Below are positions 40,954 to 41,279 of a stretch of 42,691 bases of DNA, piece after piece (the first letter of the stretch is position 1; each line of letters opens with the position of its first letter). The notes under the pieces were generated by a model that worked only from the letters and a program-made list of their open reading frames with translations, did no database searches and had not been told where the DNA came from. The DNA lies in NCBI GenBank assembly GCA_016207275.1, contig JACQPY010000017.1, positions 68,479 through 111,169 on the forward strand, written 5' to 3'. The translations under genes and the position numbers were made by a program. The stretch is from Candidatus Kerfeldbacteria bacterium (lineage in GTDB: Bacteria > Patescibacteriota > Patescibacteriia > SBBC01).

Positions 40954-41279
40954 TCCCCTGTAGTTCAACTGGTACCCCGCACCAGTGCTCGCCAATCTCG
41001 CACGGTACGGGGCAAGGAACGCTCGCTCTATCTGCTCCCCTGTAGTTTAATTGGTAAAACCCTGCACTGTTAATGCAGTGACTGTAGGTTCGAGTCCTAC
41101 CGGGGGAGCAGACAGCGTGTAGCTCCGCTGCTTGCCCCGTACACGACCTCGGTCCCCGACTTGATCTGGGAGATCCAGGGGAGTTGTGCGGGGTTAACGG
41201 AGAGGTTGGTGGTTCCCTGCCCGTCAAGTCTCGCCGGGTTCGTCCAGGAGAAGGCAGGCGGGGAGTCTACCCGGGGGAG
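40954..41279 (+). tRNA. Interrupted tRNA-Asn(GTT) with four insertions (functional status unknown)
   Basis: Joining 40954-40974, 41017-41020, 41122-41130, 41194-41215 and 41263-41279 gives a complete 73-nt cloverleaf with every stem paired. Confidence 0.8.
41036..41108 (+). tRNA. tRNA-Asn(GTT), intact, CCA not encoded
   Basis: Acceptor TCCCCTG/CGGGGGA, D stem GTTT/AAAC, anticodon arm CTGCA-CTGTTAA-TGCAG, T arm GTAGG-TTCGAGT-CCTAC. Confidence 0.97.

What the first reader, a model, noticed from the sequence alone, without database searches (positions are those of the whole stretch)
40954..41279. Nested tRNA: an intact tRNA-Asn inside a second tRNA-Asn split by four hairpin insertions
Seen: removing four segments rebuilds TCCCCTG TA GTTC AACTGGTA|GAAC|G CTCCG CTG|TTAA CGGAG AGGTT GGTGG TTC|GAGT CTACC CGGGGGA G, a 73-nt tRNA-Asn(GTT) with all stems paired. 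The segments are 40975-41016 (D-loop), 41021-41121 (D/anticodon junction), 41131-41193 (inside the anticodon) and 41216-41262 (T-loop). Its anticodon and T stems differ from the inner copy yet still pair, so it is not a recent simple duplicate. Insert 2 carries the whole intact tRNA-Asn (41036-41108) and has GCTC at both junctions. Inserts 1 and 3 are the same CTTGCCCCGTAC..GTGCGGGG element in opposite orientations. Inference: either the inserts are excised at RNA or DNA level by an unknown mechanism, or hairpin elements repeatedly disable this tRNA and a replacement copy lands inside it. Undecayed exons after four hits hint at selection. I know of no described equivalent.
Basis: partly seen in the sequence, partly recalled or inferred. 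Interest (0 to 1): 0.95.

Follow-up and report, generated by a model that had tools for sequence, protein, structure and literature searches.

The report
Dead tRNA shell around live tRNA
An intact asparagine tRNA gene sits inside the broken pieces of an older copy that is riddled with small hairpin-shaped mobile DNA elements; the same pattern recurs at many tRNA genes of this small-genome groundwater bacterium and its relatives, and points to selfish DNA that replaces the tRNA genes it breaks.

Summary
Five pieces at the stated coordinates join into a 73-nt tRNA-Asn(GTT) that ARAGORN accepts. Independent contigs from three samples carry the locus unchanged.

It is not a one-off. In this 0.95-Mb genome, 13 of 28 tRNA genes are flanked by pieces of a second copy of themselves, 5' pieces upstream and 3' pieces downstream. 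tRNA-Asp on another contig has the same plan.

The inserts belong to a palindromic element family, a YYTG tetranucleotide plus a GC-rich stem. Of 62 copies, 23 lie within 300 nt of a tRNA gene, against 1.2 expected. Two cases show precise insertion without target duplication.

Relatives carry larger elements with the same kind of ends. These hold a GIY-YIG nuclease gene plus an intact tRNA and sit inside a decaying older tRNA. Sixteen of 29 small GIY-YIG genes lie within 250 nt of a tRNA gene.

My reading is that the outer tRNA-Asn is a relic, replaced by a self-complementing mobile cassette, not a spliced gene. No EndA or RtcB was found, two intact tRNA-Asn genes exist, and relatives have 42-49 intact tRNAs. 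One result does not fit: the 3' half is unexpectedly conserved in another genus.

The parts
40913..40927 (+). Third, outermost 5' fragment: a 15-nt exact copy of the first 15 nt of the inner tRNA-Asn
   Evidence: family D2 (three copies at 40913, 40954 and 41036)
40940..40953 (+). Leader of the outer tRNA; pairs with the trailer 41280-41292 and so lengthens the outer acceptor stem
   Evidence: I1: 19 nt, 89%; outermost helix of the MFE fold
40954..40974 (+). Outer tRNA-Asn piece 1 (about positions 1-21: acceptor 5' strand, D stem 5' strand, D loop)
   Evidence: 19 of 21 identical to the inner tRNA
40975..41016 (-). Palindromic element 1 at tRNA position 21/22, in reverse orientation (stem followed by CAAG)
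   Evidence: Elements in the same position and orientation were seen in tRNA-Asp, Thr and Pro relics of this genome and in Val, Lys, Arg and Asp relics of relatives
41017..41027 (+). Outer piece 2: D stem 3' strand, position 26, anticodon stem 5' strand (one base missing) and two loop bases (about positions 22-33).
   Evidence: analogy with the tRNA-Asp locus, where the same stretch is duplicated
41028..41035 (+). Leader of the inner tRNA; pairs with the trailer
   Evidence: I4: 13 nt, 92%
41036..41108 (+). Inner, intact tRNA-Asn(GTT), the presumed working gene
   Evidence: (69.7 bits, E 1.6e-14)
41109..41121 (+). Trailer of the inner tRNA. The same trailer follows a tRNA-Asn 3' remnant at C11:164450-164413
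41122..41130 (+). Outer piece 3 (positions 26-34). It repeats positions 26-33 already present at 41021-41027
41131..41193 (+). Palindromic element 3 between anticodon positions 34 and 35, in forward orientation (CTTG plus stem)
   Evidence: A 93% copy lies at C11:165560-165501. The orthologous element in G003 has a double change in the stem that keeps pairing
41194..41215 (+). Outer piece 4 (positions 35-56)
   Evidence: 0 mismatches in G003, 1 in C11
41216..41262 (+). Palindromic element 4 in the T loop (56/57), forward orientation (CCTG plus weaker stem). It is the youngest insert
   Evidence: Precisely absent in the paralog on C11 and in G003. The 'skips 47' joint is the C11 paralog
41263..41279 (+). 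Outer piece 5 (positions 57-73, including discriminator G)
41280..41292 (+). Trailer of the outer tRNA; pairs with the leader 40940-40953

Best explanation
The outer tRNA-Asn is the shell of an older, once independent tRNA-Asn gene. It is no longer a gene.

A short cassette was inserted into its anticodon arm. The cassette is a second tRNA-Asn with a complementary leader and trailer, and positions 26-33 now stand on both sides of it. This inner copy, together with another intact tRNA-Asn on contig C6, supplies the function.

The shell also holds three members of a family of small palindromic DNA elements. Each has a YYTG tetranucleotide, then an 8-bp GC-rich stem of the type CCCCGYAC/GTRCGGGG, then a variable loop. 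These elements insert precisely and without target duplication. They land at stereotyped places of tRNA-gene DNA: 21/22 in reverse orientation, and 34/35 and 56/57 in forward orientation.

The elements pile up in shells because hits in the working copy would be lethal.

Inferred generator: mobile elements with the same kind of ends that carry a small GIY-YIG nuclease gene and an intact tRNA. On this view the nuclease breaks a tRNA gene, much as phage T4 SegB does. Repair then copies the element in, and its tRNA cargo makes the hit survivable. That explains why the inner and outer copies are always the same isotype. The small hairpins would be the cargo-less, MITE-like derivatives of these elements.

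Shown here: the anatomy, the recurrence, the empty sites, the linkage of GIY-YIG genes to tRNA genes, and ORF-bearing cassettes inside decaying tRNAs.

Inferred: cleavage by the nuclease, the copying step, the derivation of the hairpins, and that the shell is not expressed as a tRNA.
For: 1. Recurrence. A spliced alignment of each intact tRNA to its own flanks beats all 56 controls (control maximum 25) at 13 of 28 tRNA genes. Seven of these have the 5' part upstream and the 3' part downstream, with the break near the anticodon. tRNA-Asp at C16:39640-39925 has the same plan as the finding: a hairpin at 21/22, an 8-nt repeat around the inner gene, and a hairpin at 34/35.

2. The outer copies come from separate genes. 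G004 has the 'outer' type of tRNA-Asp intact, 72 of 73 identical to the joined pieces in G000, while the 'inner' type is a hairpin-ridden remnant there.

3. Precise insertion. Element 4 (47 nt) is absent to the base in C11 and in G003. Two hairpins are absent to the base in the intact gene of G004.

4. Element family. There are 64 relaxed copies. Of 62 non-overlapping copies, 23 lie within 300 nt of a tRNA gene, against 1.2 expected, and 28 carry YYTG or CARR on exactly one side. The 12-nt end motif occurs 16 times in G000 with 0 control hits, and in 39 of 61 genomes searched. Copies also sit in the 23S rRNA gene and in frame inside a protein gene.

5. Shells decay. G003 lacks the 5' half and has a T-stem mismatch. 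The C11 copy is mutated. The outer tRNA-Arg and tRNA-Thr lack parts. The outer tRNA-Asp of G008 has a changed anticodon. The outer tRNA-Gln of G016 has a mutated T loop.

6. No need for splicing and no machinery for it. Two intact tRNA-Asn genes exist. EndA and RtcB gave 0 matches. Relatives have 42-49 intact tRNAs. Removing hairpins alone gave 0 new tRNAs in 1172 variants.

7. Link to the nuclease. Sixteen of 29 small GIY-YIG genes in G000, G005, G014 and G016 lie within 250 nt of a tRNA gene, against about 0.7 expected. Nine of the 17 tRNAs at 12 such loci have flanking pieces of themselves scoring above the highest control of 30. In 3 of 8 regions examined, inverted arms of 15-18 nt (93-100% complementary) enclose the ORF. 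In two of these, the arms follow YYTG, enclose both the ORF and an intact tRNA-Gln, and sit between positions 15 and 16 of an older tRNA-Gln.
Against: 1. The finding's own locus holds no GIY-YIG gene or remnant. None of 86 reading-frame pieces of window 40500-42691 scored better than E 2.5. The nuclease link is therefore by analogy with other loci.

2. No cleavage or mobility has been shown. The small GIY-YIG proteins (86-170 aa frames) have no recognised DNA-binding domain. NCBIfam gave only one weak hit, 20 bits to a group I intron endonuclease model whose cut-off is 56.

3. The outer 3' half is 36 of 39 identical between G000 and G003. That is as conserved as the intact inner tRNA (66 of 73). 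The stretch between them is only about 60% identical and has indels. A plain relic older than the split of the two genera should have drifted more.

4. The joined outer tRNA-Asn, tRNA-Asp and tRNA-Glu still pass ARAGORN.

5. The inner tRNA-Asn lies between two hairpins rather than inside one. Its cassette ends are therefore not of the YYTG-arm type seen in G016 and G014.

6. Only 5 of the 8 ORF regions lack clear inverted arms, but that still leaves the majority without them.

7. Kinship inflates all counts taken across genomes.
Confidence: 0.65

Rival explanations
1. Partial tandem duplications without any mobile cassette. On this view, replication slippage or template switching at the many hairpins duplicates a 5' part on one side and a 3' part on the other side of a tRNA gene, giving a nested look. 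The hairpins are a separate REP-like family, moved by a Y1 (RAYT-like) transposase.
For: In G020 (tRNA-Asp) and G045 (tRNA-Arg) the flanking pieces are identical to the intact gene. At 5 loci only 5' pieces, and at 1 locus only 3' pieces, were found. The genome has three Y1_Tnp matches. All 14 genomes with 5 or more copies of the end motif have a Y1_Tnp match, against 22 of the other 47. That threshold was chosen after seeing the data, and the genomes are kin.
Against: In tRNA-Asn and tRNA-Asp of G000, the 5' and 3' outer pieces pair with each other but not with the inner gene. The Asp type is intact in G004. So the outer pieces come from one separate gene that was split by an insertion. The cassettes in G016 and G014 have defined palindromic ends. 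The RAYT-like genes are not consistently flanked by the hairpins: in 9 regions scanned, motif hits were found near or inside the gene in only 2.
Confidence: 0.12
2. Debris of integrase-type islands. On this view, the type IV secretion genes just upstream belong to an integrative element that used tRNA-Asn as its attachment site, leaving repeated tRNA parts.
For: A coupling protein (36959-39628) and a pilin (40249-40620) lie directly upstream. A second copy of the outer 3' half lies on C11.
Against: The genome has one truncated integrase match, on another contig, and none in the window. Only about 85 nt separate the inner gene from the 3' half. Integrase-type sites on the usual model (recalled) do not give 5' fragments. 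The sequence just upstream of the tRNA locus (the stretch downstream of the pilin gene in the window) is also found next to tRNA-Asn in G003, which suggests a stable chromosomal context. The pattern holds at 13 of 28 tRNA genes.
Confidence: 0.08
3. Reversible disruption at the DNA level. On this view the hairpins and the cassette can excise precisely, so the outer tRNA is a reserve gene that can be restored.
For: Insertions are precise and lack target duplication. Short repeats flank the cassette, and recombination between them would restore the gene. The two tRNA-Asp types swap the intact and interrupted roles between G000 and G004. Y1 transposases, which excise seamlessly (recalled), are present.
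Against: No contig in four runs shows this locus without an insert. The only skipping joint is the C11 paralog. Shells at other loci have lost parts for good.
Confidence: 0.07
4. A working split tRNA. On this view the four inserts, one of which carries a whole tRNA, are removed from the transcript and the pieces are ligated.
For: The joined pieces give a proper cloverleaf with the Asn anticodon and discriminator G. Leader and trailer pair. The whole locus folds far better than shuffles, z -6.8. The 3' half is conserved in G003.
Against: No EndA and no RtcB were found, with the genome 92% complete. The junctions show an 8-bp stem with 7 and 4 unpaired bases, not a 3-4-3 bulge-helix-bulge. The same element occurs in both orientations in one transcript, one of them with a C-A mismatch. 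The isotype is covered twice by intact genes. G003 has no 5' half. The family also sits in protein genes.
Confidence: 0.05
5. Assembly artefact: repeats were joined wrongly near a contig end.
For: The locus lies 1.4 kb from the contig end, and tRNA loci often lie near contig ends in this assembly.
Against: Three contigs from three samples span it with 0 differences. G003 shares the inner-to-3'-half order.
Confidence: 0.01

Closest known systems
Phage T4/T6 SegB, a free-standing GIY-YIG homing endonuclease in the phage tRNA gene cluster
   Same: A GIY-YIG gene sits among tRNA genes. SegB cuts inside tRNA genes at the conserved T-loop motif, drives inheritance of its own gene together with neighbouring tRNA genes, and causes segmental amplification of a tRNA gene. 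Sources: PMC2330249 (abstract); PMC13096335 (abstract, section 10 and passages). Here, 16 of 29 small GIY-YIG genes lie within 250 nt of a tRNA gene.
   Different: The elements here are in bacterial chromosomes, not phages. The ORFs are much shorter (86-170 aa frames) and have no recognised DNA-binding part. They have palindromic YYTG ends. The new tRNA is nested inside the old one. No nuclease activity has been tested. The finding's own locus has no such ORF.
REP/REPIN elements with RAYT (Y1) transposases, and IS200/IS605-type hairpin elements (recalled, no call)
   Same: Short imperfect palindromes with a conserved tetranucleotide at the foot, many copies, both orientations, no target duplication. 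Y1_Tnp genes are present.
   Different: Classical REPs lie between genes, not in tRNA loops. A consistent REP-flanked RAYT was not found. Loops here are long and variable and can hold an ORF and a tRNA.
Rickettsia palindromic elements (recalled, no call)
   Same: Palindromic selfish DNA in a reduced genome that inserts in frame into protein genes and into RNA genes. Here one copy lies in frame in a RAYT-like gene and is conserved in orthologues.
   Different: Different sequence family. No tRNA-loop targeting and no nested tRNAs are described for them, as far as I recall.
Archaeal multi-intron, split and tri-split tRNAs with mobile introns
   Same: Several inserts at non-canonical tRNA positions, leader and trailer pairing, and inserts that behave as mobile elements (PMC10714607, passages).
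   Different: Those are spliced at bulge-helix-bulge motifs by EndA and a ligase, and are the working genes. Here there is no such motif, no EndA and no RtcB, and the interrupted copies are redundant and decaying.
[quoted passage not shown]
   Same: Short insertions (under 200 bp) that are not introns, and GIY-YIG genes in non-intron insertions, mostly at tops or bases of stem-loops (PMC11270868, passages). The 23S gene here has about 570 extra nt, including hairpins of this family.
   Different: That paper has 0 occurrences of 'tRNA' in its main text. Nesting of a replacement gene is not possible or described for rRNA.

Membership tests
Archaeal-type spliced tRNA introns (EndA plus ligase) | Bulge-helix-bulge (3-nt bulge, 4-bp helix, 3-nt bulge) at each exon-intron junction | tested here: not met
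   Read directly from the sequence and folds. Insert ends pair with each other in an 8-bp stem, leaving 7 and 4 unpaired bases at the anticodon site. No formal BHB scanner was run.
Archaeal-type spliced tRNA introns (EndA plus ligase) | A splicing endonuclease gene (PF01974) and an RtcB ligase gene (PF01139) in the genome | tested here: not met
   0 matches each in the genome, which is 92% complete; the positive controls matched.
Archaeal-type spliced tRNA introns (EndA plus ligase) | The interrupted gene is needed, being the only copy for its anticodon | tested here: not met
   Two intact tRNA-Asn(GTT) genes exist, at window 41036-41108 and C6:30982-31056.
Bacterial group I intron in a tRNA anticodon loop | A ribozyme core detectable by covariance model, and a length over about 200 nt | tested here: not met
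   No group I intron match at E up to 10 in window 40000-42691. The hairpin inserts are 42, 63 and 47 nt.
REP/REPIN with RAYT | Short imperfect palindrome with a conserved tetranucleotide at its foot, in many copies | tested here: met
   64 relaxed copies. 28 of 62 have YYTG or CARR on exactly one side. The 12-nt motif occurs 16 times against 0 control hits.
REP/REPIN with RAYT | A Y1 transposase gene flanked by the repeats it moves | tested here: inconclusive
   Three Y1_Tnp matches. One has a hairpin about 100 nt past its end. In 9 regions scanned, the motif was found near or inside the gene in 2.
SegB-type free-standing GIY-YIG homing endonuclease | An ORF with a GIY-YIG catalytic domain at the locus | tested here: not met
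   None in window 40500-42691 (best E 2.5). Such ORFs are present at other tRNA loci of G000 and relatives at 38-64 bits.
SegB-type free-standing GIY-YIG homing endonuclease | Co-location with tRNA genes | tested here: met
   16 of 29 lie within 250 nt in four genomes, against about 0.7 expected.
SegB-type free-standing GIY-YIG homing endonuclease | Site-specific cleavage of tRNA-gene DNA, and biased inheritance | not testable with these tools
   Needs purified protein and crosses or population data.
Integrase-type island at a tRNA attachment site | An integrase next to the tRNA, and a direct repeat of the tRNA 3' part bounding an island | tested here: not met
   One truncated PF00589 match, on C10, and none in the window. 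The 3' half lies 85 nt after the inner gene with no island between them.

The most novel reading that the evidence does not exclude
The interrupted tRNA copies are not dead. On this reading the palindromic inserts and the nested cassette are removed cleanly, either from the DNA (seamless excision, with recombination between the 8-nt repeats) or from the transcript. Each locus would then hold two alternative tRNA genes that swap the intact and interrupted roles over time.

This would explain why two tRNA-Asp lineages alternate between G000 and G004. It would also explain why the outer tRNA-Asn 3' half is as conserved between genera as a working tRNA.

If true, it would be a switchable or spliced tRNA gene system in bacteria, with no known machinery behind it.
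Probability: 0.1. Interest if true: 0.95.

Novelty: new variant of a known kind. Interest (0 to 1): 0.7.

Why it matters
If the reading holds, tRNA genes in a whole order of small-genome groundwater bacteria (probably Patescibacteria) are turned over by selfish elements. These elements break a tRNA gene and bring their own replacement, leaving Russian-doll relics behind.

That would extend endonuclease-driven tRNA gene replacement, known from T-even phages, to bacterial chromosomes. It would give a source for the small hairpin insertions seen in the RNA genes of these bacteria. It would also explain why assemblies break at tRNA loci and why tRNA counts in such draft genomes can be too low.

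It offers a natural set of small nucleases and hairpin ends with apparent specificity for tRNA-gene structure, which can be tested at the bench.

For annotation, it warns that tRNA fragments and hairpins around tRNA genes are relics, not missing genes.

Tried and rejected
1. Hidden split genes for the missing isotypes. G000 shows only 28 tRNAs and none for Phe, His, Cys or Tyr. Removing candidate hairpins in 1172 combinations gave 0 new ARAGORN calls. Relatives with few contigs have 42-49 intact tRNAs. I therefore put the shortfall down to assembly gaps at repeat-rich tRNA loci.

2. Expression. The look-up of sequencing runs listed no RNA holder, so nothing can be said about transcripts.

3. 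Rfam. No family other than tRNA and LSU rRNA reached its cut-off in the window end or in 17 tRNA loci.

4. Empty site for the 1.1-kb stretch on C11 that lies between the two tRNA-Asn fragments. Only 3 of 21 genomes matched any part of it, and none was informative.

5. Automated rebuilding of outer tRNAs using the inner gene as guide. Only tRNA-Glu and tRNA-Asp passed ARAGORN (2 of 28; 0 of 56 controls). tRNA-Asn failed this route because its stems differ from those of the inner gene. The first run, with a low intron penalty, was too noisy to use (control scores 49-67).

6. Deleting the cassettes of G016 and G014. 390 variants gave 0 tRNA calls, because the outer tRNA-Gln has a mutated T loop.

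7. DnaA boxes near 41370. There were 6 matches in the window against 4.3 expected, so no signal.

8. NCBIfam gave no useful name for the small GIY-YIG proteins or for the ORF at 41593.

9. Lineage. The best named relatives of the CysRS are Candidatus Daviesbacteria at 49% identity. 'Patescibacteria-like' therefore remains an inference.

10. Literature. Six searches found no paper on nested tRNA genes or tRNA-loop hairpin elements in these bacteria. Supplementary files were not opened; those of PMC11270868 and PMC13096335 might list tRNA-linked GIY-YIG genes.

12. No structure, complex or large protein-database search was run, because none bore on the question.
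Full report
WHAT IS THERE

The window is G000:C15:68479-111169, from a 952,436-base assembly of 21 contigs that is 92% complete. 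Its genes are ordinary chromosomal ones: DnaK, DnaJ, a DEAD-box helicase, Dus, CysRS, CorA, and a type IV secretion coupling protein and pilin. The best named relatives of its CysRS are Candidatus Daviesbacteria at 49% identity, and the runs that hold the locus are groundwater metagenomes. I therefore treat the organism as Patescibacteria-like, by inference only.

ARAGORN and Rfam find one tRNA in the window, tRNA-Asn(GTT) at 41036-41108/9, at 69.7 bits.

Each of the four inserts folds as a hairpin.

The flanks add to this picture.
- The leader 40940-40958 pairs with the trailer 41274-41292.
- The leader and trailer of the inner tRNA pair with each other (41028-41040 and 41103-41115).
- The 3' arm of insert 1 pairs with the 5' arm of insert 3.
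- The whole 353 nt folds into concentric helices with the inner tRNA at the tip: -179 kcal/mol, z -6.8, and 0 of 100 shuffles fold as well.
- A third copy of the first 15 nt of the tRNA lies at 40913.

Contigs from three samples span the locus without a difference, so the assembly stands.

IT IS ONE OF MANY

The same plan is found for tRNA-Asp at C16:39640-39925. There is a 5' part with a hairpin at the end of the D loop, then an 8-nt repeat of positions 26-33 on both sides of an intact tRNA-Asp, then a hairpin between anticodon bases 34 and 35, then the 3' part. A further 3' remnant follows, holding about seven hairpins.

I aligned each of the 28 intact tRNAs to its own 450-nt flanks, allowing long gaps. 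Thirteen scored above all 56 reversed or reverse-complemented controls (control maximum 25).
- Seven have the 5' part upstream and the 3' part downstream, with the break at positions 24-40.
- Five have only upstream 5' parts.
- One has only a downstream 3' part.

Many intact tRNAs are also closed by a leader-trailer helix of 8-17 bp. Ten of 28 lie below the 5th percentile of mismatched leader-trailer pairs.

Relatives show the same nesting. I saw it for tRNA-Lys and tRNA-Val in G014 and tRNA-Arg in G045, and for tRNA-Asp in G016, G005, G008, G020, G004 and G001. These genomes belong to other genera and families of the order, and G045 to another family of the class.

THE HAIRPINS ARE A MOBILE FAMILY

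A relaxed pattern for the 8-nt stem ends finds 64 copies in G000.
- Of 62 non-overlapping copies, 23 lie within 300 nt of an intact tRNA gene, against 1.2 expected.
- 28 carry YYTG before the stem or CARR after it, never both.
- Loops fall into sub-families with shared internal motifs.

In the element's own orientation, the one non-Watson-Crick pair of the stem is always T-G. I saw this by eye.

By eye, elements at the D loop (21/22) are always in reverse orientation relative to the tRNA, and those at 34/35 and 56/57 are always forward.

Empty sites show that insertion is clean.
- Insert 4 (47 nt, beginning CCTG) is missing to the base in a paralogous copy at C11:165563-165432 and in relative G003.
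- G004 has an intact tRNA-Asp that equals the joined outer pieces of G000 at 72 of 73 positions, with no trace of the two hairpins.

Copies of the family also lie in other kinds of gene.
- The 23S rRNA gene covers Rfam LSU positions 1-1890 in 2458 nt.
- A related TCCCGCC/GGCGGGA hairpin lies in frame inside a RAYT-like gene, where the encoded peptide is conserved in orthologues.

The 12-nt end motif occurs 16 times in G000 against 0 for the reversed control, and in 39 of 61 genomes searched.

THE OUTER COPY IS A RELIC

The inner and outer tRNA-Asn differ by paired changes in the anticodon and T stems. The two tRNA-Asp types differ in the acceptor stem, and one of them is intact in G004. The outer copies were therefore once separate working genes.

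Nothing suggests they work now.
- No splicing endonuclease or RtcB was found.
- Two intact tRNA-Asn genes exist.
- Relatives with few contigs have 42-49 intact tRNAs.
- Hairpin removal alone uncovers no hidden gene.

Shells decay.
- G003 keeps the inner gene, the trailer, the anticodon hairpin and the 3' half, but has no 5' half, no insert 1 and no insert 4. Its T stem has a mismatch, because its 3' strand now matches the inner gene.
- The C11 copy is changed at position 37 and in the stem.
- The outer tRNA-Arg and tRNA-Thr of G000 lack parts, or have the T arm replaced by a hairpin.
- The outer tRNA-Asp of G008 has a changed anticodon.

One result does not fit. The outer 3' half is 36 of 39 identical between G000 and G003, and piece 41194-41215 is 22 of 22. 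The inner tRNA is 66 of 73 identical, and the stretch between them about 60%.

A LIKELY GENERATOR

Small free-standing GIY-YIG genes turned up inside these loci.
- G000 C4:23961-24233 lies between a 5' fragment and the intact tRNA-Glu.
- C6:2964-3221 lies between two tRNA-Met genes.
- C11:164018-164371 lies beside a remnant of the inner-type tRNA-Asn with the same trailer as in the window.

In G000, G005, G014 and G016, 16 of 29 such genes lie within 250 nt of a tRNA gene. About 0.7 are expected; UvrC-sized frames were left out.

I fetched 12 such loci. Nine of their 17 tRNAs have flanking pieces of themselves that score above the highest control of 30. The ORF lies between the intact gene and the fragment.

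In 3 of 8 regions examined, perfect or near-perfect inverted arms of 15-18 nt enclose the ORF. In G016 (L145) and G014 (L147) the arms follow CCTG or CTTG and begin CCCCGCC. They enclose the ORF plus an intact tRNA-Gln. The whole unit sits between positions 15 and 16 of an older tRNA-Gln whose T loop has mutated. These look like the large, cargo-bearing members of the hairpin family.

The finding's own locus has no such ORF or remnant. For tRNA-Asn this step is therefore inferred.

The closest precedent is phage T4/T6 SegB. It is a GIY-YIG endonuclease in the tRNA cluster that cuts tRNA genes at the T-loop motif, spreads itself with neighbouring tRNA genes, and amplifies a tRNA segment. Sources: PMC2330249 (abstract); PMC13096335 (abstract, section 10 and passages).

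Y1 transposase genes are also present, and they co-occur with high copy numbers of the motif: 14 of 14 genomes against 22 of 47. The threshold was chosen after the fact and the genomes are kin. They might move the small hairpins, but I could not tie a gene to the repeats.

VERDICT

What is new is the scale and the plan:
- hairpin elements aimed at fixed places of tRNA genes;
- intact tRNAs nested in the shells of their predecessors;
- nuclease-plus-tRNA cassettes with the same kind of ends.

Six literature searches found no description of this. The paper on rRNA insertions in these bacteria does not mention tRNA. Supplements were not seen.

I rate it a new variant of known kinds (free-standing homing endonucleases, and REP/MITE-like palindromes), with interest 0.7.

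Noticed in passing
window 22270-22800 (GIY-YIG gene at 22466-22756): A small GIY-YIG gene (Pfam 64 bits) that is not next to a tRNA. It is bracketed by three copies of another hairpin-bearing repeat with shared ends of the type TTCTCGACGC ... TTGCTCGAAC.
   Followed up: partly
G000 C17:30000-32457 (L020:2001-4458): The 23S rRNA gene spans Rfam positions 1-1890 in 2458 nt, about 570 extra nt. The extra sequence includes hairpins with the same CAAG/CTTG signature at C17:31094, 32026 and 32094. The gene is cut by the contig end.
   Followed up: partly
G000 C2:21848-22468 (-) and orthologues L047, L049, L050, L052, L053: A RAYT-like Y1 transposase gene carries a palindromic TCCCGCC/GGCGGGA element in frame between its HUH and Tyr motifs. 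The encoded stretch is conserved in orthologues of other genera.
   Followed up: partly
G000, whole genome: Only 28 tRNA genes were found, and many tRNA loci lie within 5 kb of contig ends: C7:420, C14:715, C17:757, C6:2792, C4:3561, C2:4122, C15:109514 and C16:124141. The repeat-rich tRNA loci probably break the assembly.
   Followed up: partly
G000, most tRNA genes, e.g. C7:404-510, C7:1319-1419, C6:30950-31090: Intact tRNAs are closed by leader-trailer helices of 8-17 bp that abut the acceptor stem. Several begin with the hairpin-family stem. How such precursors are processed is open.
   Followed up: partly
G000 C11:165563-164413 (-): A permuted copy of the finding's right half: hairpin 3, then the outer 3' half, then its trailer. 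A roughly 0.85-kb ORF follows. Then come a remnant of the inner-type tRNA 3' end with the same trailer, and a GIY-YIG gene. The ORF was not scanned against any library.
   Followed up: partly
window 40837-40859 and 40800-40830: A perfect 11-bp palindrome, of a CCCCTCC/GGAGGGG type seen many times in the genome, and a terminator-like hairpin with a T run, both just upstream of the tRNA locus.
   Followed up: no
G000 C4:3203-3637: ARAGORN's tmRNA call overlaps tRNA-Val at 3561-3637 and has an unusually long tag peptide. It is probably spurious.
   Followed up: no
window 36959-40620: A type IV secretion coupling protein and a pilin lie directly upstream of the tRNA locus. The sequence just upstream of the tRNA locus (downstream of the pilin gene in the window) is also found next to tRNA-Asn in G003.
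   Followed up: partly
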